64,000 bases of DNA from a virus (Duplodnaviria; Heunggongvirae; Uroviricota; Caudoviricetes). A program made the position numbers and the translations under genes. The stretch is from the IMG/VR virus record IMGVR_UViG_2909262264_000005. One strand, 5' to 3'. Position 1 is the first letter of the stretch. Each line of letters starts with the position of its first letter. Below, one piece after another: positions 4,049 to 56,285 of the stretch. A model generated the notes under the pieces. The model had not been told where the DNA came from. It ran no database searches and saw nothing but the letters and a program-made list of their open reading frames with translations.

Positions 4049-4305
4049 CAGCGCAGTACCTCCTGCACCAGTTTTTCAAACTTTCCAACTCTGGTTTCCA
4101 GCTCTGTCACACAATCCACCAGCTCATCCACCGCTTTTTGTGCGCGGTGTTTCGCCTGCATCAGTTCCCTGAGCGCTGGCACCATATCCCGACGAATGGC
4201 ATCTTTTGTTACACCTGTTTTTTCCAGTTGTTCCGCCTGTCGCAACATTTCCTGTGCCTGTTTACGTAATTGTTCAGGGGTAAAAGGTGTTGTCTGGTTG
4301 TTCAA
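4048..4305 (-). CDS. Hypothetical protein (85 aa), nin-region position
   Basis: Charged, coiled-coil-like ORF filling the gap between the helicase and Q; stop overlaps the Q start. Confidence 0.45.
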
Positions 4306-5693
4306 AAGAAACGCTCCATCTTACTGCTGTCAGTTCGTTTGTTGCTGTATCTGCGCGGCTGGGGCTGCTGCATTGGGGTAGAAAGAATCTGTGCGCTTTC
4401 CTGATCCACAGGCAGAAAATGTCCGTTATAAAAACGCCGGTAAATCGTTCCCAGAGAACCGTTACGTTGTTTCGTGATATTGATTTCTGCGATGCCCCTG
4501 GCCTGCGTATCCGGGTTGTACACTTCATCCCTGTAAAGCATCAGAATGATGTCTGCATCCGCCTCTATTTCTCCGGAATTTTTCAGGTCTGAGTTCATGG
4601 GGCGTTTGTTGGGTCTGGACTCCACACCGCGGGAGAGCTGGCTCAGCGCAATCAACGGAAAACCACCGGATTTTGCCAGGCCTTTAAGCCCCTTTGAGAT
4701 TTCACCAACGGCAAGGTCATGACGCCCCGTGGTTCGGGTTTTTATCAGTCCGAGATAATCAACCACCACCAGCGCCGTTTCCGGATGTTTAATCAGGTGG
4801 TGTTTCGTTGTTGCGCATATCTCGTCAATGGTCAGGTTCGCCTGGTCCACCATCCAGATATTGCGCCCGGTCATCCGCCCCACTCCTTGTGAGAAACGTG
4901 CCCAGTCTTCGTCTTCAAAGTGAGTGACAGATTTCAGGCGTGATACCGGCATTCCTCCAGCCGCAGATACCATGCGCTCACCAATCTGGATGTTCGCCAT
5001 TTCCATTGTGAACAGAAGAACACCGCGCCCCTGTTCAGTCACCTTGTCGATGATATCCAGCGCCAGTTCGGTTTTGCCCATCGAAGGACGAGCAGCAATA
5101 AATACCAGGTCGCCAGGCTCCATGCCGCCCGTTTTTGCGTCCAGTTCATCAATACCGGTCATCAACGTCCTGGATTTCTCCAGCCCCTGATTCCGGCATT
5201 CAACACGCTCAACCACTTCCGGAAGCACATCATCAATATGTACCGGCTGAATAACGCCCTTTTCCGTCGACAATGAGGCCATCATGTTCTGCGCATCCTT
5301 CAGAGCATCTTCAGCTGCTTCACAGGTATGCGCATCACGTAATTTCTGCAGCGCCTCATTCAGTGTTTTTTCTGCATCACGCAATGCGGCATTACGCCGC
5401 AACGCCGTAACATAGTGCTCCAGTGACGACTTCACCCAGGTTTTGCGCCCGGTATCAGTAATCACCGGGGCAAGTTCCGGCATCTCATTACACAACAGCA
5501 CAGGGTCAATCACGCCTGAAACACGGGCCTGTCGGCAGATGCCTGTGTAGATATCCCGATACGCTCGTACAGAAAAAACGTCTGCCGGCAATGTGGCCAG
5601 AATATCCATCACTTCATGATCTGCCCCTCGCAGAAAAAACGCGCCAATGACAGCGCCTTCCAGGTCATCGTTACGCCAGACAGGAGAAGTCAT
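4302..5693 (-). CDS. Replicative DNA helicase (DnaB family)
   Basis: Walker A GARPSMGKTELALDI, DnaB C-terminal motifs (ALSQLSRGVESRPNKRP, ILMLYRDEVY); start taken at MTSPVWRNDD (ATG 5693) overlapping the upstream gene stop; the GTG-extended ORF reaches 5732. Confidence 0.85.
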   Translation of the reverse strand: MTSPVWRNDDLEGAVIGAFFLRGADHEVMDILATLPADVFSVRAYRDIYTGICRQARVSGVIDPVLLCNEMPELAPVITDTGRKTWVKSSLEHYVTALRRNAALRDAEKTLNEALQKLRDAHTCEAAEDALKDAQNMMASLSTEKGVIQPVHIDDVLPEVVERVECRNQGLEKSRTLMTGIDELDAKTGGMEPGDLVFIAARPSMGKTELALDIIDKVTEQGRGVLLFTMEMANIQIGERMVSAAGGMPVSRLKSVTHFEDEDWARFSQGVGRMTGRNIWMVDQANLTIDEICATTKHHLIKHPETALVVVDYLGLIKTRTTGRHDLAVGEISKGLKGLAKSGGFPLIALSQLSRGVESRPNKRPMNSDLKNSGEIEADADIILMLYRDEVYNPDTQARGIAEINITKQRNGSLGTIYRRFYNGHFLPVDQESAQILSTPMQQPQPRRYSNKRTDSSKMERFF

Positions 5694-6580
5694 GCTGCCA
5701 CACCTCCGATATGTGCACGGTAACTTTCCCAACCAAACACCAGGCAGTTACGCCCACCATCAGTAACGCGATCCACAATCCGTTCACCAATGGACTCCTT
5801 AAGTTGGTCAAATGTCAGATTACTAATCAAAATTGTCGGTAAAACGCTTTCGTAACGTGCATTGATGATTTCCTGCAGGATGGTTATCTCTGTTGGCGTA
5901 CCGAACTGCACACCAACCTCATCGATGATGAGCAGGTCCAGCGATACAAAATGGTCAATAACTTCATCTTCAGTGCGTTCAGAATTGTGACGCCAGGTAT
6001 TTTTCACAGCGCGGGTCAGTCGCATGACATCCGTAATTTCGACAGTCGCCAGGTGGTAGCGAATAATATTTTTTGCCATTGATACAGCCAGGTGATTTTT
6101 CCCGGTACCGCAATTGCCAATCATGATCATGCTGGTACCCGCAGCAAGACACTTCTCCCATGAACTGGCATAGCGCCGACAAGCCTCAAGATTTCTCTGT
6201 GCGTCAGCATTCACAGCCTGGTAGTTCTCAAACTCGCAGTCCTGGAAGCGGCGGGCAATACCAGCTCTGTCAAGTAATTCATGAACTTTCAGGATGCGTA
6301 ACGCCTCCTGTACCTGATCCAGTTCATTCGCAATGCAGGTCGGGCAACCAGACACCCGTTTGATGGTTTCCCCACGAACATCTGGCCCTTTCAACACCAG
6401 ACGTGTGTATTTCCCGTGTTTCTCACACTCAGCAGTTTCCTCGCTAGTCAGCCAGTGTTCACAGCGCCACGGACGCTTCCCGGCACGGGCAAACTGCATC
6501 TCCTCCTCCAGTTCCGCCCTGCGGTTGAGCAATTGCGCTTTATCGTGTTGTGCGTAGTGTTTTTTTAACTGTTCAAACAT
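5690..6580 (-). CDS. DnaC-like helicase loader (AAA+ ATPase, IstB-like fold)
   Basis: 296 aa; Walker A IGNCGTGKNHLAV, Walker B LLIIDEVG; translationally coupled to the helicase. Confidence 0.8.
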   Translation of the reverse strand: MFEQLKKHYAQHDKAQLLNRRAELEEEMQFARAGKRPWRCEHWLTSEETAECEKHGKYTRLVLKGPDVRGETIKRVSGCPTCIANELDQVQEALRILKVHELLDRAGIARRFQDCEFENYQAVNADAQRNLEACRRYASSWEKCLAAGTSMIMIGNCGTGKNHLAVSMAKNIIRYHLATVEITDVMRLTRAVKNTWRHNSERTEDEVIDHFVSLDLLIIDEVGVQFGTPTEITILQEIINARYESVLPTILISNLTFDQLKESIGERIVDRVTDGGRNCLVFGWESYRAHIGGVAA

Positions 6581-6599
6581 TGTTCATCACCTCGAAAAA

Positions 6600-7409
6600 T
6601 CACCAGTTGAAGTTCGTTGAACCGTAGTCCTGCTCACTGAATCCCGAGATCGGGAGGCCGGTAGTTCGCCCACCTCCGGGAGCGGCTGGCTGTTGCCAGG
6701 ATTCCTCGAAATGGCGATCGGGTCCAAAGAACGTCGCGGCCTGCTTCACGAACTGTGTGCCGGTATTTCCTGTTGCACGTACCCAGGCGGCATACCGCTT
6801 CACGCCATCAAGCATGACTTCAGGTTTTATTCCCTCCCTGAGACGGGCTTTCCAGGCTTTGAAGGCTGCTGACTTGGAATTACCACCAGCACGTTTGGGA
6901 TATTCCTGCCAGGCCTGTTCAAATTCCGGTGAATATTCCTGTCGGGCAGAGCGCGCTGGTGCAGACGCGTCAGCGGATGCGCCAATAGTTGATTCATTGA
7001 CTGGTTCTTTGACTGGTTCAAAAGAGTGACTGGTTCTGGGTGAATCTCCTGCACTACCCCCTGGTGCAACTCCTGCACCACCTGGTGAATTTGCTGCACT
7101 AGGTAGTGAATTATTTGCACTACCACCTGGTGAATCTTTTGCACCATCAAGACGAAGAAGATAAATATTGCTCGAGTTCCCTTTTTCACCTTTCCGGGAA
7201 ACTTTTTTTACCAGTCCCGATTCACAAAGAGCCGTAATATGATTCATCACAGAACGTTTGCTAATCTCGCACTGATCAGCAATATGCTGATAGCTGGGCC
7301 AGCACTCGCCCTGATCGCTGGCATTATCAGCCAGCTTAATCAGAACCAGTTTTCGCAACGGATTTCCCACACGAATTTTCATCGCTTTCACCATCAGCTC
7401 CATGCTCAT
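6600..7409 (-). CDS. Replication initiation protein (lambda O-like; N-terminal winged-HTH, Gly/Ser/Pro/Ala linker)
   Basis: 269 aa; N-terminal 90 aa almost identical to the ORF at 55467-56285; position immediately upstream of the helicase-loader genes; iteron-like DNA repeats inside the gene. Confidence 0.7.
   Translation of the reverse strand: MSMELMVKAMKIRVGNPLRKLVLIKLADNASDQGECWPSYQHIADQCEISKRSVMNHITALCESGLVKKVSRKGEKGNSSNIYLLRLDGAKDSPGGSANNSLPSAANSPGGAGVAPGGSAGDSPRTSHSFEPVKEPVNESTIGASADASAPARSARQEYSPEFEQAWQEYPKRAGGNSKSAAFKAWKARLREGIKPEVMLDGVKRYAAWVRATGNTGTQFVKQAATFFGPDRHFEESWQQPAAPGGGRTTGLPISGFSEQDYGSTNFNW
7035..7215. repeat. Iteron-like direct repeats plus AT-rich tract inside the O-like gene (putative replication origin)
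   Basis: About five imperfect ~20-bp repeats of the form GGTGAATCTCCTGCACTACC... followed by AT-rich AAGATAAATATTGCTCGAG...TTTTTCACCTTTCC; same layout as lambda ori inside O. Coordinates approximate. Confidence 0.4.
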
Positions 7410-7630
7410 AACACACCTCCCAGGCGTTTAAACATTTTTCCGGACTGAAACGCCACCAGTGGGTAACTGATGGTGTAGTTACGCCCCAGTAATTCACACA
7501 CGACTTTCTGGCTTTCGGTACTGACCAGGCAAACCCGCAGAACGTGACCGTTGCTGGTGGCGAACCACTGCCCCACACGGGGGCAACGGTTGTATCGGTG
7601 ATACAGGGAATTAACGATGCGACGAATCAT
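7406..7630 (-). CDS. Hypothetical protein (74 aa)
   Basis: Paralog of 56282-56518 (…VLRVCLV…VVCELLGRNY…); overlaps the O-like gene start by 4 nt. Confidence 0.5.
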   Translation of the reverse strand: MIRRIVNSLYHRYNRCPRVGQWFATSNGHVLRVCLVSTESQKVVCELLGRNYTISYPLVAFQSGKMFKRLGGVL

Positions 7631-7860
7631 GGGCGCTCCTCCTGCACATCAGCCATGAGCATTTTGCTGGCTGTTTCCAGCGCCTGGTCGGCGCTAATTT
7701 GCATGACAGCCAGTGAATGAGGAACAAAAGCACCGGCATATTCTGTTTCACTGGTGGCGTGTTTATGCGCCATATCTGCGATAACAGAGATGTCAATCAG
7801 TGCATCCATCAGGGTTTTAATTACCGTAACAGAGGTGTCTGAATAATGGTTATTACACAT
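7627..7860 (-). CDS. Hypothetical protein (77 aa)
   Basis: ORF with ATG overlapping the upstream stop (ATGTGTAA); no recognisable motif. Confidence 0.35.
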   Translation of the reverse strand: MCNNHYSDTSVTVIKTLMDALIDISVIADMAHKHATSETEYAGAFVPHSLAVMQISADQALETASKMLMADVQEERP

Positions 7861-10202: not shown

Positions 10203-10895
10203 ATGACATTTTCAGAACGACTTGATTTAGCTATGCGCAACGCAAAATTTACGCAAGGTAGGCTGGCCAAAGAAGTGGGTATGGCTCAGTCCAGTGTCAA
10301 TCAACTACTTAACAAAGCCAACGGTTCCAGAAAAACAGTCGAAATAGCAAAAGTTTTGGGCGTTAACCCGGAATGGCTTGCATCGGGTGTTGGCCCAATG
10401 GAAATCGTGACCTCTGCAGACTCACACCAAATACGTAACATTTCTGAAGATTGGGTTACTGATTCGTATGTCGTGGATGTTTTAGACATCAGATATAGTT
10501 GCGGACCTGGTAGTTATAACTCTGATTTTCCTGACATTGTCAGATCTATAGCGATAGAACCAGGATACGCATCAAGAGTTTTTGGCGGCAGACCAGCATC
10601 AGCAATCAAAGCAATAAACGCCCACGGCGACAGCATGAAAGGCACAATAAACCCTGAGGACTTGGTGTTTGTTGACGTATCAGTTCGCTCATTTAATGGC
10701 GATGGTATATACGCTTTTACATACTCAGGAACATCGCACATCAAAAGGCTTCAAAAAATCAAAGACACCCTAACAGTGATCTCAGACAATCCAGCTTACA
10801 AAGATTGGGCTATCGAACAAGATGACTTCGAGCAACTTCACATTGACGGAAAAGTAATCGTAAGTTGGCCTATGACGCTACACCGTTTCGCATAA
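10203..10895 (+). CDS. CI-like prophage repressor (N-terminal HTH, C-terminal S24 LexA-type peptidase domain)
   Basis: 230 aa; HTH region QGRLAKEVGMAQSSVNQLL; C-terminal GDSM...K autocleavage-type domain (AHGDSMKGTINPEDLVFVD). Confidence 0.85.
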   Translation: MTFSERLDLAMRNAKFTQGRLAKEVGMAQSSVNQLLNKANGSRKTVEIAKVLGVNPEWLASGVGPMEIVTSADSHQIRNISEDWVTDSYVVDVLDIRYSCGPGSYNSDFPDIVRSIAIEPGYASRVFGGRPASAIKAINAHGDSMKGTINPEDLVFVDVSVRSFNGDGIYAFTYSGTSHIKRLQKIKDTLTVISDNPAYKDWAIEQDDFEQLHIDGKVIVSWPMTLHRFA

Positions 10896-14799: not shown

Positions 14800-15009
14800 G
14801 TGGGGCTGGATTGCGTACCTATATCAACCTACTGCCGCAACGCAGGAGAAACGGTTGATGCCGTTAACAAACGGATACAAAGAGGAATATGGAAAGAAGG
14901 GGTACATGTATTAAAAGTCGACGGAGTTAAAGAACGTTGGGTCGACTTAATGGAGATTACAAAATGGGCAAGAAAGAACAAGGATCATTATCTCTCCCTA
15001 GAGGAGTAA
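14800..15009 (+). CDS. xis: Excisionase (Xis-like)
   Basis: 69 aa from a GTG; …LDCVPISTYCRNAGETVDAVNKRIQRG.WKEGVHVLKV.GVKERWVDL… paralog of 62114-62320; 3' end overlaps the integrase start. Confidence 0.65.
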   Translation: MGLDCVPISTYCRNAGETVDAVNKRIQRGIWKEGVHVLKVDGVKERWVDLMEITKWARKNKDHYLSLEE

Positions 15010-16136
15010 CTATTCGGCAGCATAAAACTGGTAGCACTCTGGTTATCACTTTTACATATAAAGGGGTTCTGTGTCGGGAGCCCCTCTCCAGAATGGAAGT
15101 AAACGCGCGCGGTGTGAAGTACGCAGAACGTCTGCTGGGAGAAATAAAAAATCAGATTATCGATGGTACCTTCGAATATGCAAAATACTTCCCCAACTCC
15201 CAAAAGCTGGAGTTGTTCGGGGGAGTGAAAAAAAACAAAAATATAAAATCTTATCTGGATGAATACCTGATTATCTGCCAGAACCGTAACCTGTCACCAT
15301 CGACAATTAGAGGTTATGAAAAATGCTTGTCGGCGCTGTCAGCATTGCATAAATTTCATGTATCAGAACTGACACCTGCTGTACTAAAAAACTGGATCGC
15401 CAGCAGAAAAACAAAACTGAAAACGATCCGCAATAATCTTTCGTTTCTGCGCAGCGCCATAGATGAAGCGGTGACCGATGGTTTGTTAACAATAAATCCT
15501 GTCACGCTAGTCAGCGCCAGCCGGTATCACGTATTGGACAACACACCAGGCAGTGGTGATTACGAGGTCGATCCCTTTACACCAGCGGAGACGGCAGCAA
15601 TCTATGACGCCTGTCATTACCCGGAATGGCGAAATCTGTTTCGCTTTGCCTTTAATACCGGACTGCGTAGCTCAGAATTGTGCGCGTTGCGCTGGACGGA
15701 TATAGACTTCATCGGCAACACCGCGCATGTTCAAACTGCAAGCGTAGTCGGGGTAATCAAAAGCACCAAAACAAAAGCCGGCACCCGCAAAGTGCAACTG
15801 AACAGCGAAGCGCTGGCGGCTCTTCAGGCACAAAAGCCCTACACGGCGCTAAAGAGCGACTTCATATTCAGCGATCCGAAAACTCGCGCTCCTTGGGCAA
15901 ACGCAGATGCGATCCGAAAAAAAGCCTGGGTACCAACCCTTAAAAAAGCTGGTGTACGCTATCGCAATCCGTACCAGACACGCCACACGTTCGCCACACG
16001 GCACATTAGCCAGGGCGTTAACCTGTTCTGGCTTGCTGGTCAGATGGGACATAAAGGACCGGAAATGCTGTTCAGACATTACGGCTCTTACCTTGCAGAA
16101 TACGATGGAAAAACGGCGATTTCTGCAGCCCCGTAA
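14964..16136 (+). CDS. int: Tyrosine integrase (phage integrase family)
   Basis: 390 aa; C-terminal catalytic region …RNPYQTRHTFATRHISQGVNLFWLAGQMGHKGPEMLFRHYGSYL; adjacent to att core. Confidence 0.9.
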   Translation: MGKKEQGSLSLPRGVTIRQHKTGSTLVITFTYKGVLCREPLSRMEVNARGVKYAERLLGEIKNQIIDGTFEYAKYFPNSQKLELFGGVKKNKNIKSYLDEYLIICQNRNLSPSTIRGYEKCLSALSALHKFHVSELTPAVLKNWIASRKTKLKTIRNNLSFLRSAIDEAVTDGLLTINPVTLVSASRYHVLDNTPGSGDYEVDPFTPAETAAIYDACHYPEWRNLFRFAFNTGLRSSELCALRWTDIDFIGNTAHVQTASVVGVIKSTKTKAGTRKVQLNSEALAALQAQKPYTALKSDFIFSDPKTRAPWANADAIRKKAWVPTLKKAGVRYRNPYQTRHTFATRHISQGVNLFWLAGQMGHKGPEMLFRHYGSYLAEYDGKTAISAAP

Positions 16137-16453: not shown

Positions 16454-16529
16454 CCCTTAAGTTCCTAGCCGCTTATCTATAACTATGGAAAAATGTTAAC
16501 CCTGACTGTATGTTAACAAAGGGATGTAT

Positions 16530-17738
16530 ATGTCGGTTTTTCATAACTGGCTGCTTGATATCGCAAGCGGGAATTACTTTATCTACATCAAACGCCTTTC
16601 TGCAAACGACACAGGCGCAACAGGTGGCCATCAGGTCGGACTTTATATCCCCTCAAATATCGTTGAAAAGCTTTTTCCATCTATCAATCATACTCGCGAA
16701 CTGAACCCTTCAGTCTTCCTTACTGCGCATGTATCATCCCATGATTGCCCTGATACCCAAGCACGCGCAATTTATTACAACAACCGTTATTTTGGTAAGA
16801 CCCGAAACGAAAAAAGAATTACGCGCTGGGGGAGAGGAAGTCCATTACAGAACCCTGAAAATACAGGAGCCCTCACAATTCTTGCTTTCAGGTTAAACGA
16901 ACAGAACACTGACTGTTCCGAGGTAGATATATGGGTCTGCGTCAATCCCGATGAAGAGGATATCATCGAGTCTGCTATTGGCGAAATCATACCTGGAACC
17001 CTAATTTCCGGCCCTGCCGGACAAATTTTGGGCGGATTGTCTCTTCAGCAAACTCCAGTAAATCATAAATATGTTATTCCTGAAGACTGGAAGAAGCGTT
17101 TTCCTTCTGGAAACGAAATTATTCAATATGCTGCTGGCCATTATGCTAAAAACTCCAAGGATCCAGATGAGCAACTGATTGACCGTCGGCGTGTCGAGTA
17201 TGATATTTTTCTACTCGTCGAGGAATTACATGTTATTGATATTATTAAGAAAGGATTCGATTCTGTAGATGAGTTTATTGCATTAGCCAACTCTGTCAGT
17301 AATCGACGTAAATCAAGGGCAGGCAAATCACTTGAACTTCACCTAGAGAAGCTTTTTATCGAGCACGGACTACGGCATTTCTCCACTCAGGCAGTTACTG
17401 AAGGTAATAAAAAACCAGATTTCCTGTTTCCTTCAGCAGAGGCATATCATAACGTTGAATTTCCTGTAGAAAACTTACGTATGCTGGCAGTAAAGACCAC
17501 CTGCAAAGATCGCTGGCGTCAGATACTGAATGAAGCAGATAAAATCCATCAGGTACATTTATTTACACTGCAAGAAGGTGTTTCTTCAGCACAATACCGA
17601 GAAATGAAAGATGCGGGTGTCAGACTCGTTGTACCATCAACTTTACATAAAAAATACCCAGAAGCAGTTAGAGAAGAATTAATAACGCTCGGAGCATTCA
17701 TTACTGAGCTGATAGAGCTTTACGCTGAACTATCATAG
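16530..17738 (+). CDS. Type II restriction endonuclease, EcoRII family
   Basis: Start MSVFHNWLLDIASGNYFIYIKRLSANDTGATGGHQVGLYIPS matches my recollection of the EcoRII N-terminus; ~402 aa; convergent with a C5-cytosine methyltransferase. Confidence 0.75.
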   Translation: MSVFHNWLLDIASGNYFIYIKRLSANDTGATGGHQVGLYIPSNIVEKLFPSINHTRELNPSVFLTAHVSSHDCPDTQARAIYYNNRYFGKTRNEKRITRWGRGSPLQNPENTGALTILAFRLNEQNTDCSEVDIWVCVNPDEEDIIESAIGEIIPGTLISGPAGQILGGLSLQQTPVNHKYVIPEDWKKRFPSGNEIIQYAAGHYAKNSKDPDEQLIDRRRVEYDIFLLVEELHVIDIIKKGFDSVDEFIALANSVSNRRKSRAGKSLELHLEKLFIEHGLRHFSTQAVTEGNKKPDFLFPSAEAYHNVEFPVENLRMLAVKTTCKDRWRQILNEADKIHQVHLFTLQEGVSSAQYREMKDAGVRLVVPSTLHKKYPEAVREELITLGAFITELIELYAELS

Positions 17739-17772
17739 GCTGACTCCCGGCTTAAAAGGCCGGGAGATGTTC

Positions 17773-19206
17773 TCAAGGCTGCCCAGTCTTACCAGCATCA
17801 GCAGAAACAGCTTTGAGGATATAGGGTTCCAGAAGTCTGGCAACAGCTTCAAATACTGGCACCACAACTGAGTTACCGAACTGCCGATATGACTGAGTAT
17901 CTGAAACCGGAATACGGAATGGTTTCCCTCCAGGTTTTTCAAATCCCATAAGGCGTGCGCACTCTCGGGGAGTCAGCCTGCGTGGTCGACGAGCCTGATT
18001 ACTCTCATTCATAAAGTCAGCCTCTCCCGTTGCCATATCCCAACCACGATCAATAAGAATTTCTGATCCGTCTTTGTGATATCTGGCAGAAAGTGTGCGT
18101 GCAATGCTTTCCTTATTCTCAGGATTGACCAACCCAAAGCCAAAACCATTCCCCTTGGCTGCATGCTTTTTGGCGTAGTTATAAAGGTACTCCCATAGTT
18201 TTGGCGTAAGTATATATTTACTGTCGACTACAGGCTCCAGCAATTCACCAAATGATGGGCGGTGTTCCGGATAAAAACGACTGATATCACGCAAGGTAAA
18301 CCCCTTGTGAATATTCAGATCTCGTCTAAATCCGACCAGAACAATACGTTCACGATGCTGAGGCAAAAAATGCTTCCCATCGATAATCTTTGGATCGTTT
18401 TTTCCCATTTCTGCAGCATCGGCAACTTCGTAGCCCAGCTCGTCAAGGGTCTCCATAATGACTTTGAAAGTTTTACCCTTATCATGGCTCTTCAGATTTT
18501 TGACATTTTCCAGCACAAAAATTGCCGGTTTTTTTGCTCGTATAATACGTGCCACGTCAAAAAAAAGTGTTCCTTGTGCTTCACATTCAAAACCATGCGC
18601 ACGACCAAGTGAGTTTTTCTTACTAACACCAGCAAGGCTAAATGGCTGGCACGGGAACCCCGCAAGAAGCACATCATGATCCGGCACATGCTCATCAATA
18701 TATGCATAAGCATCCGTTTCCAATACATCGGTTTTATCACTCAGCGTGACTTCCCGAATATCGAGATTGAATTTATGCACCTGTTCATCGTTAAACCAGT
18801 TGGCCTTGTATGTACGCACAGCATCTTTATTCCATTCACTGGTAAAAACACACTGGCCTCCAATGGCCTCAAAACCTTTCCGTATCCCTCCAATTCCAGC
18901 AAATAAGTCAATGAAGCGGAAAGCATATTCCGGATGGTTTGCAGGTGGTTCTGGTAGCATCTTACGCAGAAGAGACTCTTCTACTGAAGTCAACGATTTT
19001 GGTAAACACTTGCCATTAATCCAGCGGTTAATGGTTTCACGGCTCCACTCATTTTTTCCGACTTTTCTCAGTAATTCAGCCACATACTTCTGATCATAGA
19101 TTTCCAGCACTTTCTCGATAAGCTTTTTATCATTTTCCTGTCGCAGCTTTTCTTCCGCCTCGGCTTCCTTCAGCAGATGCTGTGCCAACACTTCAAATTC
19201 AGACAT
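17773..19206 (-). CDS. DNA (cytosine-5)-methyltransferase, Dcm/M.EcoRII-like
   Basis: Motif [16 protein letters not shown], motif [22 protein letters not shown]; start MSEFEVLAQ with RBS GGAGG; tail-to-tail with the endonuclease gene (34-bp gap). Confidence 0.85.
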
Positions 19207-19567
19207 AATTCCTCCAAGGGGTCTAATGGGTGAAACTTTATCACTCATTCAACCCAGAAGGAAATGTTTTATCTGGATATTTAAACAGTGACTACAACGT
19301 AATCTAGCACTGGTGATGCTTTGTTAGGCATAGAGAATCATTCTATATACGACTAATGACAGAAAAACAGCAGACAAGTAGTTTGTTCATAAATTAACGC
19401 ATACTATGTGTCTACGGTTTTCGAGACCGGTCCAATCATCAAACGAAACATAAAATTAGCTCACATTATGAGGAAAAGTATCTTTTTTGTACTATGTAAA
19501 TTCAAAGGCTTAGCCTCATTTCTCCGATGGTTTTCTCAACACTACTGGTTGTGAGCCCTTGCAATGA

Positions 19568-30713: not shown

Positions 30714-31043
30714 CTATGCCACGACCTGTTCAAAATCTGCCGTTATGGTTACCCACAGCGCCCCCACGCTTGCCGACCATTTACGACAAACCACCCTAAT
30801 CGGCTTCCAGTCATAAGGTGGCGTCCACTGAAATGCGCGGACGCCACCGTGCCGTTCCAGAAAGGCTTTTAAAGATGGGTGTTCACATTTACGAACACGT
30901 ATCGTCACGCTGTAAGTCGACAACTGGTTATTCAGTCCCGCCGCACGACGCTGTTCATAACCATCGCCCAGCTTCACTGTCACCACTTTCGGTTCTGATA
31001 CCACATTCATATCCGGGCGCACTTTCCAGTGAAACGTCTCCAT
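30714..31043 (-). CDS. M: Minor tail protein M
   Basis: 109 aa, same size and position as lambda M. Confidence 0.8.
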   Translation of the reverse strand: METFHWKVRPDMNVVSEPKVVTVKLGDGYEQRRAAGLNNQLSTYSVTIRVRKCEHPSLKAFLERHGGVRAFQWTPPYDWKPIRVVCRKWSASVGALWVTITADFEQVVA

Positions 31044-34000
31044 TACCGATATGCTCCACTTAACCGACCACCATCACGGGCCTGCTGTTGCATAAAGTCC
31101 GCTGCCGCTTTTTTCCCGAGGTCATAAACCACCTTCAGGGCAGCCGGACCTATCTGCCCGTTCGTGCCATCGTTATTGATCTCGATGTTGTACTGCGGGG
31201 CAAACATCGCCATACCTGAACCACCAATATCCGCCACAACCCCCAGCTTACCGTCAGCACCACGACGCAGTGGCAGAATGGCTTCAGGTCCAGCTTCCCC
31301 CATCACACCTGCACCTTTTGCAAAAGCAAAAAACGTCGGACGGTTAACCACCGTGCCACTGTAGCGACTCAAATCAGCAGACTGATAAACACCACCATCA
31401 GCATTGGGCGTCACACTGGCAGTTGCTGCACTCCCCCAGCCAAACGCCGAACCAATCCCCTTAACTGCCTGCATCATGGACATCTGGGCCATGATTTTTG
31501 CCAGATCAGAAAGGAGCGAGGCGGTAAAAGATTTGAAGTTCAGTTTTCCGGTAGTACAGAACGTTGCCAGTGCATTACCTGCACTGTTAAATGCCGCTGT
31601 AAGCATCTGCTCAGCAGTGCCTGCCGCATTATCCGCATCTGCCGTGAAATTCTGAAACGCCCGCATAGCACCGTTTTTCCAGTTACCCTGAGCAATTTCA
31701 AGCTGTTGCCAGTAACGGCGATTCTCATTCAGTTGTCGGTTCAGGCTCTCCGTCAGCGCCTGCTCGGCCTTTCTGTAGTCATCCGTGTTATATGTCCCTT
31801 TCTGCTCACTATCCCGCCTCAACTGCTCCAGCTGTTGCTGGTATTTCTGGCGAAGACTCAGTTGTACCTGATATCGCTGCCGCTGCTGATCACCCATACC
31901 CACCGTGGCGATATCCAGGTCATGTTGCTGACGCTGAGCGCGCTCTTCTTCAGCCAGTTGACTGGTCAGCTGAATTGTTTTTTTCTTCAGCTCGTTGAGT
32001 GCCGTCTGTTTCTGAAGCTCCTGCTGTTTTACATCCAGCAGCGTCAGTGCCTGAATCAGTTCATCTTTACGGGCCAGCACACTCTTTTCATCTGCCGTCA
32101 GTTTTTTCCCGTCCAGGTCGCTGATGCGCTGCTGCAGAGCCAGAAGCTGTTTATGCGCTTCTGTCATCTTTTCAGTGGCAATGCCTGCTGACTGTCTTGC
32201 AGCAGCAATCTGCCCTTCCACCTGTGCCTGTTGCTGACTGTACTGCATCAATAACCGGGTGGCCTCATCATTACGGGTTTCGCGTGTTTTTTTCTTACCG
32301 GATGCCAGGGCTTTCTCGTAACGTTCATTTTCACGTTGTATCGCCGCATCCCTGACAGCCTGGTCGGCGTACTGCATGGCATTAATACGCGCAATTTCAC
32401 GCTGATGTCGTGCTGCTTCCGTTTCATTCATCCGGTTCAGTGCAGCATTTTCAGCATTACGTCGTTTCTGTTGCTCCTGATAATTCCGCTCTGCCTGCTC
32501 TTTTGCATCCTGCAAATCCTTCTGGCGTTTTTTCTCCTGAAGATCGTTAAGACGCTGCTGATCGTATTCAACCTGAGAAGATGATGCCGTCCAGGGGAGT
32601 CTTTTCGCCCGCGACACTTTCTCCTGTAAAGCGGCAATCTGTTCATCCAGCGAGTCTTCACGACCAATATTCATGGCCGCATCCCAGAAACGACTCCACA
32701 AATCAGACAGATACTTCAGCGTACTGCCAAGCGCATTGAGGTTATTATCAATATCCGCAGTACGCCGACCGGTTTCCTCTGCCAGTGCAGACATGGCTAT
32801 CCGTGCAGCATCACTGGACCGTCCCTGATCCCCAAGGACACGTATCTGCTCAAGCTGAGTGGCAGTAAGAAAATGCAGCTCATTGTCCAGAGCCTTCGCG
32901 GCATTTACAGGATCATCCTTCAGCCGCTTAAACTGATTTATGGTATCGCTGACCGACTGGCCAACCGATCGCTCCATCTGTGCGGCAGCTCTCGCCACCA
33001 TACCGATATCGTTTCCACGAAATGCACCACTCCCCACCACCTGAGCCAGCGCACCGGCTGCAGCATGTTGCGTGATACCATTCCCGGAAATAGCACGACT
33101 AAGCGTCCACAGCTGCCCGGCAGTGACTCCGGCATAATGCCCCGTCAGCGACAACTGGCGGTTAAATTCTTCCCCCTCCTTCTGACCGTCATACCAGGCT
33201 TTACCCAGACCATAGACGGCCGCGGCAATACCGCCAATAACCCCGCCCAGCATCATGCCTTTCGGTGACATCAGTGTGTCTATCCATCCGGCACGGTTAG
33301 CCAGCGTTATCCCGGATCCCCTCAGCGCACCTAAATTGCCGCGAGCCAGTTCACCTATCAGAACGCCTATCTCCTGGCGGGCCGCTGCACTTTTCAGACC
33401 CAGCGAATGCGTGGCTTTTCCTGCCTGCTCCATTTTGCGGATATACACTTCTGCAGCACTGCTTACCCCCAGTTGGGCAGCCTTAGCACGAAGCAACTCA
33501 GAAGAAGAAAGATTCTGGCGGGTTGCCTGCTCTTTAAGCTGACGGATAAACGCCACTTTCTGTCGGGTAGCCTCTTCCTCAGCCTGTGTAAGAACACGGG
33601 TTTTCGCCGTAACCTCAGAAATCAGCGCCAGATAATCCTGCTGACCAATCCCGCCACTGTGTCTGGCCTGTCGGATCTGCTGCTGAATACGCTGTAATTC
33701 CTGCAGCCCCGCACTGGCCTGTTTCACACTGTCAATCTGACGATAAAACGCAGCAGCCGCTTTATCCTGAGCCTCCGCCAGAGCCATGGCCTGCGCCTGT
33801 TCATCGCGCATTTTCTGGCTCAGCGCCTCCATGCGCTGGCGGGTTTTCTCCACCTCGCGAGCCATGCGTTCATGAGCCTGTGCGTTCTTCTCCACCGTCT
33901 GCGCATGGACGGAGGCGGCTGTTGCAGCCGAAGAAGCCGCCTGCGTTGTCTGCCGGGCGGCCTGAGTCTGACGCTCCATAAAACGCTGCATACGGGCAGA

Positions 34001-34147
34001 AGACCGTTCTGCATCGCTGGCTGCACCATTCAGAAGGTTTTTGATACGGGGAATTTCATTTTTAAACTCTGCCGCATCAATCCCCAAATCAATGACCAGG
34101 TTGGCTATCTGGTCCATAACGCACACCTCCGGAAATACCTTCTCCAA
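31043..34147 (-). CDS. H: Tail tape measure protein H
   Basis: 1034 aa; long coiled-coil, Ala/Gln/Glu-rich; C-terminal …NNDGTNGQIGPAALKVVYD… typical of lambdoid tape measure. Confidence 0.85.
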   Translation of the reverse strand: MEKVFPEVCVMDQIANLVIDLGIDAAEFKNEIPRIKNLLNGAASDAERSSARMQRFMERQTQAARQTTQAASSAATAASVHAQTVEKNAQAHERMAREVEKTRQRMEALSQKMRDEQAQAMALAEAQDKAAAAFYRQIDSVKQASAGLQELQRIQQQIRQARHSGGIGQQDYLALISEVTAKTRVLTQAEEEATRQKVAFIRQLKEQATRQNLSSSELLRAKAAQLGVSSAAEVYIRKMEQAGKATHSLGLKSAAARQEIGVLIGELARGNLGALRGSGITLANRAGWIDTLMSPKGMMLGGVIGGIAAAVYGLGKAWYDGQKEGEEFNRQLSLTGHYAGVTAGQLWTLSRAISGNGITQHAAAGALAQVVGSGAFRGNDIGMVARAAAQMERSVGQSVSDTINQFKRLKDDPVNAAKALDNELHFLTATQLEQIRVLGDQGRSSDAARIAMSALAEETGRRTADIDNNLNALGSTLKYLSDLWSRFWDAAMNIGREDSLDEQIAALQEKVSRAKRLPWTASSSQVEYDQQRLNDLQEKKRQKDLQDAKEQAERNYQEQQKRRNAENAALNRMNETEAARHQREIARINAMQYADQAVRDAAIQRENERYEKALASGKKKTRETRNDEATRLLMQYSQQQAQVEGQIAAARQSAGIATEKMTEAHKQLLALQQRISDLDGKKLTADEKSVLARKDELIQALTLLDVKQQELQKQTALNELKKKTIQLTSQLAEEERAQRQQHDLDIATVGMGDQQRQRYQVQLSLRQKYQQQLEQLRRDSEQKGTYNTDDYRKAEQALTESLNRQLNENRRYWQQLEIAQGNWKNGAMRAFQNFTADADNAAGTAEQMLTAAFNSAGNALATFCTTGKLNFKSFTASLLSDLAKIMAQMSMMQAVKGIGSAFGWGSAATASVTPNADGGVYQSADLSRYSGTVVNRPTFFAFAKGAGVMGEAGPEAILPLRRGADGKLGVVADIGGSGMAMFAPQYNIEINNDGTNGQIGPAALKVVYDLGKKAAADFMQQQARDGGRLSGAYR

Positions 34148-40774: not shown

Positions 40775-40986
40775 CAGAACCTCGCCAGCCGGTACCCGGG
40801 ATGCCCACGTCGTCGTGTAATCAGAGCCGCAAGGCGGCGCTCCCACTCCTGCCGCCCCTGCCGGATCTCAGATAAGTTTTCCATGGTCATCTGCTGACCA
40901 TTAAAAGTGACGGATTTTCCGTCCAGCACCGCCATTTCAGCTTCCGTATAACGCTGAATCATGGCTTCAATATCATTCTGATTCAT
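40774..40986 (-). CDS. Head-tail joining protein (gpW-like)
   Basis: ~70 aa; C-terminus …RRRGHPGYRLARF resembles lambda W (…RRRGPAGFYV). Confidence 0.5.
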   Translation of the reverse strand: MNQNDIEAMIQRYTEAEMAVLDGKSVTFNGQQMTMENLSEIRQGRQEWERRLAALITRRRGHPGYRLARF

Positions 40987-54326: not shown

Positions 54327-54976
54327 GCCGCCATCTCCCTGACCAGTTTTTCTGCCTGCAGGCGAACCTGCGCCAGAAAGGCCTCACCACATGCCTCAAG
54401 TTCATCACGCCCGATGTAGCTGATTGCCGGTCCCTTCCAGGTCTTGTCGAAAACAGCAATAGCACCAGCGAAGAAAGCGCCTGTCGGCACCTGCTTCTCG
54501 TCCTTCGGTATAAACCAGGCAGGCAGTTCAAAACCAATACGCCCGCGAATAAAAGCAATATGATCTGCATCTTCCGGCCACCACACTTCGCTGGTGGCCG
54601 CTTTGATCAGGAAAACATAGCGCCCGCCCTTATCACGCATGGCACTGGCATGTTTCATGATGTAACGCATGCCGGTGATGTATTGCCCCTCATGCTGACT
54701 GGCGCGGCTGTATGGGGGATTACCAAAGGCAGCACCTTTAAGCTCCGCAAGACGTTCTGACCAGTCATGCGCCAGCGCGTTATCTTCCGCCGTGTAATAC
54801 GCGGCACATTTGGCGTTATCACCGTCAGTAAACAGATCCAGAACAAACGGGCCAAACAGGGTGTTAATTCCCCAGAAAATGTTGTCCGGCGTGCGCCACT
54901 GATCGCCCACTTCCTTCAGTTCATGGGCTGGTTTGTTCCGCAGTTCCACCAGCGCCTGGCAATATTTATTACTCAT
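54323..54976 (-). CDS. Phage N6-adenine DNA methyltransferase (NPPY motif)
   Basis: Start MSNKYCQALVELR; motif …AAFGNPPYSRAS…; orphan (no restriction partner). Confidence 0.75.
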   Translation of the reverse strand: MSNKYCQALVELRNKPAHELKEVGDQWRTPDNIFWGINTLFGPFVLDLFTDGDNAKCAAYYTAEDNALAHDWSERLAELKGAAFGNPPYSRASQHEGQYITGMRYIMKHASAMRDKGGRYVFLIKAATSEVWWPEDADHIAFIRGRIGFELPAWFIPKDEKQVPTGAFFAGAIAVFDKTWKGPAISYIGRDELEACGEAFLAQVRLQAEKLVREMAA

Positions 54977-55470
54977 TAAGCCCCCACGTAATTCCCTGAC
55001 AGATACCACTCTTCACCCGATGCAGCGCGCTTGCTGCTTTTCCGTAAGCACCGCTCACGACGCGCCAGAAAATTGTTTCGTTCTGGCTGGGAGTGGCTTT
55101 CACGGAATGCCGCCATCCACACGGTTGCAGCACGACGGTATAAGCCCCTGGACTCCAGTTCTTCAGCCTGGCGGGTCAGGCACAAAATCACCCGTGGATC
55201 GTTAGTGCCGACATAGAAATTGCGCACAGGTCTGGTTTCTCGAACTGGTTGTGGTTCCGGTTCCTGCGCTCTCTCAGTCAGGCGCGGGAAATGTCTGCGT
55301 GTATCTCCTTCACAACGGTGAGCCACACGCCCACTCTGACGTAACTTGCTTGCTGACTGCAGAACGCGCTGCCGTGAGTAACCTGCAAAAGCATCCGCAA
55401 TGTCTCCGGAAGTACACCCCGGATGGGCTTCAATGAATTTCTGAACTTCATTCAAAAGACTCATGATCAC
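54976..55470 (-). CDS. Hypothetical protein (164 aa)
   Basis: Arg-rich ORF tightly packed between the O-like gene and the methyltransferase. Confidence 0.45.
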   Translation of the reverse strand: MIMSLLNEVQKFIEAHPGCTSGDIADAFAGYSRQRVLQSASKLRQSGRVAHRCEGDTRRHFPRLTERAQEPEPQPVRETRPVRNFYVGTNDPRVILCLTRQAEELESRGLYRRAATVWMAAFRESHSQPERNNFLARRERCLRKSSKRAASGEEWYLSGNYVGA

Positions 55471-56285
55471 CCCCTGAATCCTGCCGGGATCTGGCTGTAG
55501 TCCACGTTGTCGTAACTGGCTTTGAAGTACGGGTCCTCGCGTCTGGCTGCAGATACCGCAGGAACTTCCCAGGATTCTTCGAAATGACGATCCGGACCAA
55601 AGAACGTGACAGCCTGTTTCACAAATTGTGTGCCGCTGTTACCCATCGCAGATACCCAGCCCGCGTAGCGTTTCACACCTTCCAGCATGGTTTCGGGGTT
55701 TACTCCCTCATTCAAACGGGCTTTCCAGGCTTTGAAGGCTGCAGATTTTGAATTGCCACCAGCACGTTTGGGATATACCAGCCATGCCTGCTCAAACTCC
55801 GGAGAGTATTCCGGTCGGTTTGAACGAACTCGCACGGACTCATCAACTGATGCACCAACAGCTATTGGTTCATTGACTGGTTCTTTGACAGGTTCAAAAG
55901 AGTGACTGGTTCTGGGTGAATCTCCTGCACTACCCCCTGGTGCAACTCCTGCACTACCTGGTGAATTTGCTGCACCAGATAGTGAATTATTTGCACTACC
56001 CCCTAGTGAATCTCCTGCACCATCCAGATGAAGGAGATAGATATTACTTGAGTTACCTTTTTCACCTTTCCGGGTGACTTTTTTTACCAGCCCGGACTCA
56101 CAAAGGGCCGCAATATGATTCATCACAGAACGTTTGCTAATCTCGCACTGGTCAGCAATATGCTGGTAGCTGGGCCAGCACTCACCCTGATCGCTGGCAT
56201 TATCAGCCAGCTTGATCAGAACCAGTTTTCGCAATGGATTACCCACTCGAATTTTCATCGCTTTAACCATCAGCTCCATACTCAT
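55467..56285 (-). CDS. Replication initiation protein (O-like)
   Basis: 272 aa; N-terminus nearly identical to 6600-7409. Confidence 0.7.
   Translation of the reverse strand: MSMELMVKAMKIRVGNPLRKLVLIKLADNASDQGECWPSYQHIADQCEISKRSVMNHIAALCESGLVKKVTRKGEKGNSSNIYLLHLDGAGDSLGGSANNSLSGAANSPGSAGVAPGGSAGDSPRTSHSFEPVKEPVNEPIAVGASVDESVRVRSNRPEYSPEFEQAWLVYPKRAGGNSKSAAFKAWKARLNEGVNPETMLEGVKRYAGWVSAMGNSGTQFVKQAVTFFGPDRHFEESWEVPAVSAARREDPYFKASYDNVDYSQIPAGFRG
55905..56095. repeat. Iteron-like repeats + AT-rich tract inside second O-like gene (putative ori)
   Basis: Same repeat family as 7035-7215 (GGTGAATCTCCTGCACTACC…), followed by GATAGATATTACTTGAG…TTTTTCACCTTTCC. Confidence 0.4.

What the first reader, a model, noticed from the sequence alone, without database searches (positions are those of the whole stretch)
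7035..7215. Iteron-like repeats and an AT-rich tract inside both O-like genes: putative replication origins
Within the Gly/Ser/Pro/Ala-rich linker coding region of both O-like genes (7035-7215 and 55905-56095) there are about five imperfect ~20-bp direct repeats followed by an AT-rich segment, the arrangement of lambda ori inside O. The repeats also create long spurious ORFs on the opposite strand. The two prophages share almost identical O N-termini and repeats, so they probably have the same initiator specificity.
Basis: partly seen in the sequence, partly recalled or inferred. Interest (0 to 1): 0.4.

Follow-up and report, generated by a model that had tools for sequence, protein, structure and literature searches.

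The report
Iteron replication origins inside initiator genes
Both prophages carry, inside their replication-initiator gene, five evenly spaced copies of a small palindromic DNA word that is conserved as DNA rather than as protein, which is the signature of a lambda-style phage replication origin; the arrangement is an expected kind, here documented for an initiator family unrelated in sequence to lambda O.

Summary
Each O-like gene (minus strand: 6600-7409 and 55467-56285) holds five exact copies of GTGCA-N5-TKCAC, spaced 24, 21, 21 and 24 bp. The window has 14 matches to this pattern against 0.53 expected.

The repeats are selected as DNA, not as protein:
- Synonymous-codon resampling never reproduces them (0 of 20,000).
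- Relatives carry the same word in different reading frames.
- About 25 variants of the recognition helix each have their own dyad word at the same spacing.

The repeats lie in a predicted disordered linker between a winged-helix N-domain and a helical C-domain. They are most likely iterons of a phage origin, as in lambda, P22 and L. The initiator itself is not a lambda-O family member. It belongs to the SfV Orf39 / Eru2A family (Pfam HTH_36).

The "AT-rich tract" is only modestly AT-rich, and nothing identifies it as the unwinding element.

Two further points emerged:
- A block just after the iterons, with 2-3 direct AACCAGTCA 9-mers, is conserved codon for codon across Escherichia, Salmonella, Klebsiella and Vibrio phages.
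- The prophage-2 initiator ends in a DnaT-like tail, and no helicase or loader gene follows it.

Verdict: a new member of a known kind, of moderate interest.

The parts
6600..7409 (-). Prophage-1 replication initiator gene (O1, 269 aa). Winged-helix N-domain aa 1-88, disordered linker aa ~89-156, helical C-domain aa ~157-230.
   Evidence: ORF. Pfam HTH_36 2.5e-11. phrog_270 'replication initiation protein' 9e-88. AlphaFold model and pLDDT profile. Winged-helix fold matches.
7040..7144 (-). O1 iteron array: five copies of GTGCA-N5-TKCAC at 7130-7144, 7106-7120, 7085-7099, 7064-7078 and 7040-7054. Spacing 24, 21, 21, 24 bp.
6998..7037 (-). O1 conserved block AGAACCAGTCACTCTTTTGAACCAGTCAAAGAACCAGTCA, with three direct AACCAGTCA 9-mers (7027-7035, 7010-7018, 6998-7006). 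Candidate second cis-element of the origin.
   Evidence: No segregating site at gene nt 371-393 among 47 haplotypes.
7146..7215 (-). It encodes the wing of the winged-helix domain. GC about 0.33-0.45. No evidence that it is the unwinding element.
5690..6580 (-). DnaC/IstB-like helicase-loader ATPase immediately downstream of O1.
   Evidence: Pfam IstB_IS21 5.7e-15. NCBIfam DnaC 3.4e-43, below the curated cut-off.
4302..5732 (-). DnaB-family replicative helicase of prophage 1.
   Evidence: Pfam DnaB_C 1e-72. TIGR00665 6e-93, below the curated cut-off.
55467..56285 (-). Prophage-2 replication initiator gene (O2, 272 aa), 81% identical to O1 and a very close relative of SfV Orf39. It ends in SQIPAGFRG, which resembles the C-terminus of DnaT.
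55916..56020 (-). O2 iteron array: five copies of GTGCA-N5-TKCAC at 56006-56020, 55982-55996, 55961-55975, 55940-55954 and 55916-55930. Spacing 24, 21, 21, 24 bp.
55874..55913 (-). O2 conserved 9-mer block. The middle copy has one mismatch (AACCTGTCA).
54976..55470 (-). PerC-like gene directly after O2. It occupies the place where prophage 1 has its loader and helicase, so prophage 2 encodes neither.
   Evidence: Pfam PerC 7.8e-9. The same gene order is seen in SfV, cdtI and 118970_sal3 and in 58-60 non-redundant loci.

Best explanation
Proposal. Each repeat array is the iteron set of a phage replication origin that lies inside the coding sequence of its own initiator.

Proposed mechanism, all steps inferred:
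1. The initiator's N-terminal winged-helix domain, probably as a dimer, reads each 15-bp dyad GTGCA-N5-TKCAC with its recognition helix (ISKRSVMNHI).
2. The five sites sit about two helical turns apart, on one face of the DNA, so they would assemble a lambda-O-some-like nucleoprotein complex.
3. That complex would destabilise a neighbouring stretch. My preferred candidate is the conserved AACCAGTCA 9-mer block just downstream in the direction of transcription, and the stretch beyond it.
4. The C-terminal domain and tail of the initiator would then bring in a helicase. In prophage 1 this would be the phage's own DnaC-like and DnaB-like proteins. In prophage 2 it would be the host machinery, possibly through the DnaT-like tail.

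The two prophages have the same recognition helix and the same half-sites, so each initiator should fire both origins.

Shown here:
- The repeats, their spacing and their dyad symmetry.
- Selection on the repeats at the DNA level.
- Covariation between the repeat word and the recognition helix.
- The predicted domain layout of the protein.

Inferred, not shown: binding, unwinding, helicase loading and origin activity.
For: 1. Statistics.
- 14 matches against 0.53 expected, confined to the two genes apart from one site.
- Synonymous resampling never reproduces the repeats.

2. The constraint is on DNA, not protein.
- In relatives the same word occurs in a different reading frame and encodes a different peptide.
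- Cases: mEp044 (VTQSH against SDTESP), Vibrio phage D96a, Klebsiella KpnBHU6, and loci L104, L110, L114, L119, L180.
- Spacing stays at 21-25 bp in all of them.

3. Specificity covaries with the recognition helix across about 25 helix variants.
- ISKRSVMNHI goes with GTGCA-N5-TKCAC.
- VSRSTVKSHI goes with GGGCA-N5-TGCCC.
- CSK[ST]AVRNHI goes with TGCCA-N5-TGGCA.
- MTRRSAINHI goes with GTGAAA-N3-TTTCAC.
- Three N-domains only 34-53% identical to each other share (K/E)RTxMR and GTGAC-N5-GTCAC.

4. Population data.
- Among 47 haplotypes, core sites vary rarely and only as singletons or doubletons (7 of 50 sites).
- Between-core sites vary often, including common non-synonymous changes (13 of 30).
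- Copy number ranges from 5 to 8 with the register kept.
- A Klebsiella homologue (72% aa) has its highest nucleotide identity over the iterons (0.87-0.93 against 0.6-0.83), and its changes fall in the N5 spacers.

5. Protein context.
- The family is annotated as a replication initiator: phrog_270 at 9e-88.
- The gene sits after cI, cro and cII-like genes and, in prophage 1, directly before the loader and helicase genes.
- The iterons fall in a predicted disordered linker (pLDDT about 30) between a winged-helix domain and a C-domain.
- The two halves of the protein are shuffled independently among phages.

6. Precedent. Lambda, P22 and L have iterons inside O or gene 18 (PMC8022706; lambda annotation).
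Against: - There is no experimental evidence for binding or origin activity in this family. None turned up in the library I could search. The SfV genome paper is not held.
- There is no pronounced AT-rich unwinding element. Both flanks are only 8-10 GC points below the gene average.
- Some relatives (Salmonella SF6, Stx2_16002) keep only one recognisable copy of their word. Either one site can suffice or other elements matter.
- The iterons and the N-domain are physically adjacent, so part of the covariation could be co-inheritance.
- No IHF site, good DnaA box or promoter-like site was found nearby.
Confidence: 0.8

Rival explanations
1. The repeats are only a by-product of a repetitive Gly/Ser/Pro/Ala-rich protein linker, for example one made by replication slippage. 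On this reading the DNA has no function of its own.
For: The repeats are in frame (21 and 24 bp) and encode a repetitive low-complexity peptide. Copy number varies, as slippage would produce.
Against: - Synonymous resampling gives 0 of 20,000.
- Out-of-frame copies encoding different peptides occur in at least eight lineages.
- The half-sites are invariant while the peptide between them changes freely.
- The linker is predicted to be disordered.
Confidence: 0.03
2. The dyads are operators through which the initiator, or another phage DNA-binding protein, regulates transcription or translation of the replication operon. On this reading they are not origin elements.
For: Dyad-symmetric 15-bp sites are typical of winged-helix repressors, and the fold matches are mostly to such regulators. 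No strong AT-rich unwinding element lies beside them.
Against: - Five to eight phased sites inside a coding region, far from any promoter-like site, is not an operator layout.
- The protein family is annotated as an initiator and is paired with helicase modules.
- The layout matches lambda, P22 and L origins.
- Autoregulation could coexist with origin function.
Confidence: 0.08
3. The repeats and the conserved block are kept mainly as homology patches that promote exchange of initiator modules between phages, that is, as junctions for modular recombination.
For: N- and C-terminal halves are shuffled with break points near here. Vibrio phages D160 and D96a have identical C-terminal 160 aa but different N-modules. 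The block is nearly identical in nucleotide sequence across distant phages.
Against: - Iteron words differ between specificity types, so they cannot provide homology between those types.
- Selection for evolvability is weak compared with the purifying selection observed on single bases.
- Stx2_499 joins the same C-domain without the block.
Confidence: 0.05
4. The dyads are bound by a host factor or by another phage protein, not by the product of the gene that contains them.
For: No binding data exist. One iteron (GTGCAAATAATTCAC) also fits a loose Fis consensus.
Against: The word changes with the recognition helix of the embedding gene across about 25 variants, including distantly related N-domains that share a helix motif and a word. 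A host factor would predict one word in every phage of a given host.
Confidence: 0.04

Closest known systems
Phage lambda ori (four iterons inside gene O, bound by the O N-terminal domain)
   Same: - The repeats lie inside the initiator gene, in the linker just after the DNA-binding domain.
- Each repeat has internal dyad symmetry.
- Spacing is about two helical turns: lambda 20, 24, 23 bp against 24, 21, 21, 24 bp here.
- The protein is modular, with an N-half for specificity and a C-half for helicase recruitment.
- The gene has the same place in the early right operon.
   Different: - No detectable sequence homology of the proteins.
- The word is different, and there are five to eight copies rather than four.
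- No strongly AT-rich region lies downstream. A conserved block of AACCAGTCA 9-mers sits there instead.
- The partner is DnaC-like plus DnaB-like, or nothing, rather than lambda P.
P22 gene 18 and phage L gene 18 origins (iterons inside the initiator gene, each with its own repeat)
   Same: The principle is the same, as stated in PMC8022706: distantly related ori-binding proteins each bind different iterons within their own coding regions. Prophage 1, like P22, has a DnaB-type helicase gene downstream.
   Different: - Different protein families and different repeat words. L has six 11-bp repeats of TGTCCAACGGA.
- As for L, the origin here is inferred from sequence only.
SfV Orf39 / Stx2c-phage Eru2A / phi24B-type 'O2' replication proteins
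   Same: - This is the same protein family. O1 is 81% identical in protein to SfV Orf39 and to Stx2c-phage proteins, and the O2 and SfV sequences printed are almost identical.
- O1 shares 58% identity with the phi24B O protein over aa 1-138.
- Their genes contain the same kind of array.
   Different: The papers I could read on these phages (PMC8044961; PMC3430580) classify the replication modules but describe no origin or iterons.
Iteron plasmids (RepA, pi, TrfA, RepE)
   Same: A winged-helix initiator binds phased direct repeats. There are possible accessory repeats next to the iterons, as with the DUE 13-mers of RK2, which are bound strand-specifically (PMC4081077, listed).
   Different: - The model shows one winged-helix domain rather than the WH1-WH2 pair of plasmid Rep proteins (the pair is from background knowledge).
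- The iterons are inside the gene rather than upstream of it.
- No DnaA boxes.

Membership tests
Lambdoid-type origin embedded in the initiator gene | Three or more phased direct repeats with internal dyad symmetry, located between the DNA-binding and helicase-recruiting parts of the initiator gene | tested here: met
   Five exact GTGCA-N5-TKCAC copies, 21 or 24 bp apart, at codons 89-124, between the winged-helix domain and the C-domain.
Lambdoid-type origin embedded in the initiator gene | The repeats are conserved as DNA, beyond what the protein-coding requirement imposes | tested here: met
   Synonymous resampling 0 of 20,000. Out-of-frame copies in relatives. Cores invariant while spacers vary.
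Lambdoid-type origin embedded in the initiator gene | The repeats are bound by the N-terminal domain of the cognate initiator | not testable with these tools
   Indirect support only: the repeat word covaries with the recognition helix.
Lambdoid-type origin embedded in the initiator gene | An AT-rich DNA-unwinding element adjacent to the iterons | tested here: inconclusive
   Flanks have GC 0.40 and 0.43 against 0.51 for the gene. The least stable 30-mers rank in the top 1-6% of the window, far from lambda's A-rich run.
Lambdoid-type origin embedded in the initiator gene | The region supports initiator-dependent replication | not testable with these tools
   Circular 41-45 kb 'plasmid' records carry this module, and the one inspected has no typed plasmid replicon. 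They look like phage genomes, so this is weak evidence.
Lambda O protein family (Pfam PF04492, Phage_rep_O) | Significant match to the family profile or to lambda O | tested here: not met
   No Phage_rep_O hit at E <= 0.01. hhalign of the family alignment against lambda O gives probability 1.2%.
HTH_36 winged-helix phage replication initiators (phrog_270; SfV Orf39 / Eru2A) | Profile match and close homology to named members | tested here: met
   PF13730 at 43.6 bits against a cut-off of 25. phrog_270 at 9e-88. 81% protein identity to SfV Orf39 and Stx2c-phage proteins. Winged-helix model.
DnaD-like replisome organisers | DnaD N-terminal domain match above the curated threshold | tested here: inconclusive
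   PF21984 at 24.4 bits against a cut-off of 27. DnaD N-domain 2v79 appears among many winged-helix fold matches at E 0.055.
Iteron-plasmid Rep proteins (WH1-WH2) | Two tandem winged-helix domains, iterons upstream of rep, and DnaA boxes | tested here: not met
   One winged-helix domain followed by a disordered linker and a helical domain. The iterons are inside the gene. There are only one-mismatch DnaA-box matches.

The most novel reading that the evidence does not exclude
The origin of this large initiator family may have two layers.

1. A variable iteron set, read by a rapidly diversifying recognition helix.
2. An invariant module of strand-specific AACCAGTCA 9-mers.
- This module is conserved codon for codon from Escherichia to Vibrio phages, whatever the iteron word and whatever helicase is used.
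- It would be a previously unrecognised universal cis-element, for example the melting or helicase-entry site, or a site bound as single-stranded DNA.

In addition, phages of this family that encode no helicase or loader may recruit the host machinery through a C-terminal SQIPxGFRG tail copied from host DnaT. That would also point to the still unknown way in which DnaT hands DnaB-DnaC to DNA.
Probability: 0.3. Interest if true: 0.6.

Novelty: new member of a known kind. Interest (0 to 1): 0.4.

Why it matters
This initiator family is very common. The protein search found 5,540 relatives at E <= 1e-5, and NCBI names most of them simply "helix-turn-helix domain-containing protein". It drives replication of SfV, cdtI, Stx2c (Eru2) and phi24B-type Shiga-toxin phages, where toxin output is linked to prophage induction and the lytic cycle (PMC8951638, PMC8065619).

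- Knowing the origin and its recognition code gives direct targets for experiments on replication control and for annotation.
- It also helps predict cross-talk between co-resident prophages. The two prophages here should fire each other's origins.
- The out-of-frame iteron copies are a clean natural demonstration that a coding region can be constrained by a DNA-binding site rather than by its protein product.
- The 9-mer block and the DnaT-like tail are testable leads on how such origins open and how they acquire a helicase.

Tried and rejected
- Tandem Repeats Finder on 6800-7450 missed the O1 array and found only the 12-bp TGACTGGTTC repeat. The divergent spacers defeat it, so I used motif scans instead.
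- Homology to lambda O was tested and rejected.
- No solved structure is related by sequence. The only matches are low-complexity noise, to a keratinase and a glucuronidase.
- The fold search gave only generic winged-helix matches, E 0.015-0.09.
- No Rfam family matches 6500-7700.
- Single-strand folding of the origin region is unremarkable, z = -1.4.
- No sigma-70-like promoter, no IHF site, and only one-mismatch DnaA boxes.
- The single extra motif match at 31570-31584 is within chance expectation.
- The SfV genome paper could not be retrieved. An earlier description of these repeats therefore cannot be excluded.
- The first IMG/VR scan, with the N-domain as query, returned only near-identical relatives. 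I obtained diversity by scanning for the conserved block instead. All loci from that scan contain the block by construction, so they say nothing about how common the block is.
Full report
**What is there**

The two "O-like" genes are on the minus strand: O1 at 6600-7409 (269 aa) and O2 at 55467-56285 (272 aa). They are 81% identical in protein.

Read on the coding strand, each gene contains five exact copies of the 15-bp dyad GTGCA-N5-TKCAC. The starts are 24, 21, 21 and 24 bp apart.
- O1 copies, + coordinates: 7130-7144, 7106-7120, 7085-7099, 7064-7078, 7040-7054.
- O2 copies, + coordinates: 56006-56020, 55982-55996, 55961-55975, 55940-55954, 55916-55930.

The pattern occurs 14 times in the window against 0.53 expected. 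All but one isolated palindrome at 31570 lie in these two arrays. The fourth copy (GTGCAGGAGTTGCAC) is a perfect palindrome. The others differ from perfect symmetry by one base.

Immediately downstream in the direction of transcription lies a second kind of repeat: three direct copies of (G)AACCAGTCA, at 6998-7036 and 55874-55912.

**Is it more than the amino-acid repeat?**

The repeats are in frame (xGT GCA nnn nnT TCA Cnn) and encode a Gly/Ser/Ala/Pro-rich peptide.

I resampled synonymous codons for the same peptide, using the codon usage of neighbouring genes, 20,000 times.
- Motif copies: mean 0.04, maximum 2, against 5 observed.
- Pairwise identity of the ten core positions: 0.55, against 0.96 observed. 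No resample reached it.
- Best-lag self-identity: the observed value was reached in 0 of 20,000 resamples (O1) and 4 of 20,000 (O2).

Shared ancestry of recently duplicated units could also give identical codons. Three further results argue against that.

1. *Variation among close relatives.* 80 IMG/VR loci gave 68 unique genes, and together with four reference genes they gave 47 collinear haplotypes.
- Core positions vary at 7 of 50 sites, and only as singletons or doubletons.
- Positions between cores vary at 13 of 30 sites, including frequent non-synonymous changes.
- Copy number ranges over 5, 6, 7 and 8 with the register kept.

2. *A more distant homologue.* A Klebsiella homologue (72% aa identity) has its highest nucleotide identity over the array (0.87-0.93 against 0.6-0.83 elsewhere). 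All five cores still obey the pattern, and the changes fall in the N5 spacers.

3. *Out-of-frame copies, the decisive result.* Relatives carry exact copies of their own word in a different reading frame, so the copy encodes a different peptide.
- mEp044: GTGACACAGAGTCAC is read as VTQSH twice and as SDTESP once, with spacing 22 and 23 bp.
- Vibrio phage D96a: VTESH against GDRESH.
- Klebsiella KpnBHU6: MPSKST against VCHEIA.
- Further cases occur in L104, L110, L114, L119 and L180.

The constraint is therefore on the DNA.

**What reads it**

Pfam places the N-terminus in HTH_36 (43.6 bits against a cut-off of 25). There is a sub-threshold DnaD_N match and no Phage_rep_O match.

PHROGs assigns the protein to phrog_270, "replication initiation protein", at 9e-88.

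An AlphaFold model built on 20 homologues shows three parts:
- a winged-helix domain, aa 1-88, with pLDDT 62-90 per ten-residue block (mostly 78-90), a recognition helix at 51-64 and a beta-hairpin wing at 67-85;
- a disordered stretch, aa 91-156, with pLDDT about 30;
- a helical C-domain, aa 157-230.

Foldseek finds only generic winged-helix regulators and the DnaD N-domain.

The iterons (codons 89-124) and the 9-mer block (codons 125-138) thus lie in the part of the gene where the protein is least constrained.

A tblastn search of phage genomes shows that the two halves are shuffled independently.
- phi24B and Min27 "O" share aa 1-138 with O1 (58% identity) but have another C-half.
- Stx2_499 "O" shares only the C-half (about 85%).

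**Covariation with the recognition helix**

I compared 13 annotated phage loci. I also compared 120 IMG/VR loci recovered by scanning for the conserved block. Each variant of the recognition helix has its own dyad word at 21-25 bp multiples.

| Recognition helix | Repeat word | Notes |
|---|---|---|
| ISKRSVMNHI | GTGCA-N5-TKCAC | the type in this window |
| ISRRSVINHI | GTGAA-N5-TGCAC | |
| VSRSTVKSHI / IGRSTVKVHI | GGGCA-N5-TGCCC | three copies in phi24B, five in L171 |
| CSK[ST]AVRNHI | TGCCA-N5-TGGCA | |
| CSKSAVR[ADY]HI | GTGCCG-N5-AAGCAC | |
| MTRRSAI[NS]HI | GTGAAA-N3-TTTCAC | |
| MSRKTAIGHI | GTGTAA-N3-TTACAC | |

Part of this could be simple co-inheritance, because the two features are adjacent. 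Against that, Vibrio D160, E. coli mEp044 and Vibrio D96a have N-domains only 34-53% identical to each other. That is no closer than they are to other family members. Yet all three share a (K/E)RTxMR helix motif and the word GTGAC/Y-N5-GTCAC.

**The AT-rich tract**

- Its least stable 30-mers have GC 0.30-0.33.
- They rank in the least stable 6% (O1) and 1.1% (O2) of the window.
- Over 60 nt the flank is GC 0.40, against 0.43 on the other side and 0.51 for the gene.
- Its third codon positions vary as freely as elsewhere in the N-domain.

In lambda the AT-rich region follows the iterons in the direction of transcription, and it is a conspicuous A-rich run. Here nothing comparable exists on either side. 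The claim is therefore only partly confirmed, and the position of the unwinding element remains open.

**A conserved block not noted before**

Just after the last iteron comes AGAACCAGTCACTCTTTTGAACCAGTCAAnGAACC, which encodes RTSHSFEPVxEP.

I compared six mutually divergent lineages: O1, phi24B, Vibrio D160, Vibrio D59, Salmonella S137 and Klebsiella KpnBHU6. Their N-domains are 59-78% identical.
- In the block, 8 of 9 amino-acid-invariant columns use a single codon in all six lineages (pairwise codon identity 0.94). The codons include AGA and AGT, which are rare in E. coli (general knowledge, not measured here).
- In the N-domain, only 1 of 37 such columns does so (pairwise codon identity 0.36).

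The 9-mer AACCAGTCA is always on the sense strand. It occurs in all three reading frames:
- two frames within the block itself;
- a third frame in mEp044 (CCT AAC CAG TCA);
- the same third frame in an extra copy upstream of the iterons in phi24B-type genes.

So this too is a DNA-level element. It goes with this clade of N-domains whatever the iteron word and whatever the helicase type. It is absent from D96a and from Stx2_499.

I do not know what it does. My preferred guess is that it forms part of the opening or helicase-entry zone, or is a secondary site, possibly single-stranded, for the initiator. A role as a recombination junction between modules is a weaker alternative.

**How the helicase would arrive**

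O1 is followed by a DnaC/IstB-like ATPase (5690-6580) and a DnaB-family helicase (4302-5732).

O2 is followed by a PerC-like gene, a gene resembling the phage dam methylases, a LexA-like gene and a RusA-like gene, with no loader or helicase. Only the PerC assignment was tested. The others rest on ORF order and on the annotations of the collinear SfV, cdtI and 118970_sal3 loci, which have the same order.

O2 and its relatives end in ...YSQIPAGFRG. This matches the extreme C-terminus of E. coli DnaT (...DSQIPPGFRG) at 8 of 9 positions.

The tail of the initiator tracks what lies within 3 kb downstream in non-redundant loci.

| C-terminal tail | What follows | Loci |
|---|---|---|
| DnaT-like (..IPxGFRG) | PerC-like, Dam-like and/or RusA; no helicase or loader | 58, plus 2 variants |
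| ..STNFNW | DnaC-like, usually followed by DnaB-like | 3 |
| ..SDKLTF | DnaC-like then DnaB-like | 4 |
| ..GYVFFDR | phi24B-type primase-helicase | 7 |
| ..LRKTREGxL | DnaB-like only | about 6 |

A 2017 review states that the way DnaT recruits DnaB-DnaC is unknown (PMC5778457). That the tail mimics DnaT to borrow host functions is therefore an inference.

**Context**

The window holds two separate prophages.
- Their integrases are at 14937-16136 and 62281-63456.
- Their S24-peptidase repressors are at 10203-10895 and 58230-58904.
- An EcoRII restriction-modification pair lies between them (16524-19248).
- The large ORFs at about 20-53 kb, including a large terminase at 40983-43085, look like the late genes of prophage 2.

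Recognition helix and half-sites are identical in the two initiators.

**Comparison with what is known**

The arrangement is that of lambda ori. It is also the arrangement of the P22 and L origins, whose iterons lie inside distantly related initiator genes (PMC8022706).

The protein is not a member of the lambda O family. It belongs with SfV Orf39, the Eru2A protein of Stx2c phages, and the phi24B "O2" type.

The papers I could read on those phages classify the modules but mention no origin or iterons (PMC8044961; PMC3430580). I found no description of these repeats in the searchable library. The SfV genome paper is not held.

**Verdict**

This is a new member of a known kind, of moderate interest. 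Most of that interest comes from three things: the clean evidence for DNA-level selection, the map from recognition helix to iteron word, and the two side leads (the 9-mer block and the DnaT-like tail).

Noticed in passing
window 55470-55496 (-), last 9 codons of O2; compared with L094:3979-4518 (E. coli dnaT): The O2 and SfV-type initiators end in SQIPAGFRG, 8 of 9 identical to the extreme C-terminus of host DnaT (SQIPPGFRG). In 58-60 non-redundant loci this tail goes with the absence of any helicase or loader gene downstream. Other tails go with DnaC-like plus DnaB-like, DnaB-like only, or a primase-helicase.
   Followed up: partly
window 6998-7037 and 55874-55913 (-): A block of direct AACCAGTCA 9-mers is conserved codon for codon across Escherichia, Salmonella, Klebsiella and Vibrio phages: 8 of 9 invariant columns use a single codon, against 1 of 37 in the N-domain. 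The 9-mer occurs in all three reading frames and always on the sense strand. Its function is unknown.
   Followed up: partly
window 16524-19248: An EcoRII-type restriction endonuclease (16524-17738, +) and a C-5 cytosine methyltransferase (17773-19248, -) sit between the two prophages, next to the prophage-1 integrase at 14937-16136.
   Followed up: no
window 7406-7630 (-) and 56282-56518 (-): A small ORF (74 and 78 aa) ends in an ATGA overlap with the initiator start codon in both prophages. The ORF in the same position in a Klebsiella phage-like plasmid is annotated as DUF4222. Pfam found nothing for either window ORF at E <= 0.01.
   Followed up: no
window 31570-31584: A single perfect-palindrome match to the iteron pattern (GTGCATTACCTGCAC) lies inside the long ORF 31043-34147. 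This is within chance expectation (0.53 per window).
   Followed up: no
L002 (Vibrio phage D160) and L012 (Vibrio phage D96a): The two initiators have identical C-terminal 160 aa, but their N-domains are only 36% identical. This is a recent swap of the N-domain-plus-iteron module. Both carry GTGAC/Y-N5-GTCAC repeats.
   Followed up: partly
L216 (Klebsiella pneumoniae plasmid pKPTCM2-4, NZ_CP118695.1) and other hits: Several 28-48 kb circular records deposited as plasmids carry this initiator. Hosts include E. coli, Klebsiella, Arsenophonus nasoniae, Shewanella, Microbulbifer and Edwardsiella. The one inspected has a lambdoid early region and no typed plasmid replicon, so it is probably a circular phage genome or a phage-plasmid.
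   Followed up: partly
L004 (Salmonella phage SF6) and L010 (Stx2_16002): These phi24B-type initiators keep only one recognisable copy of their word (GGGCAGGAGCTGACC), whereas phi24B has three and L171 has five. Either a single site can suffice or other elements compensate.
   Followed up: no
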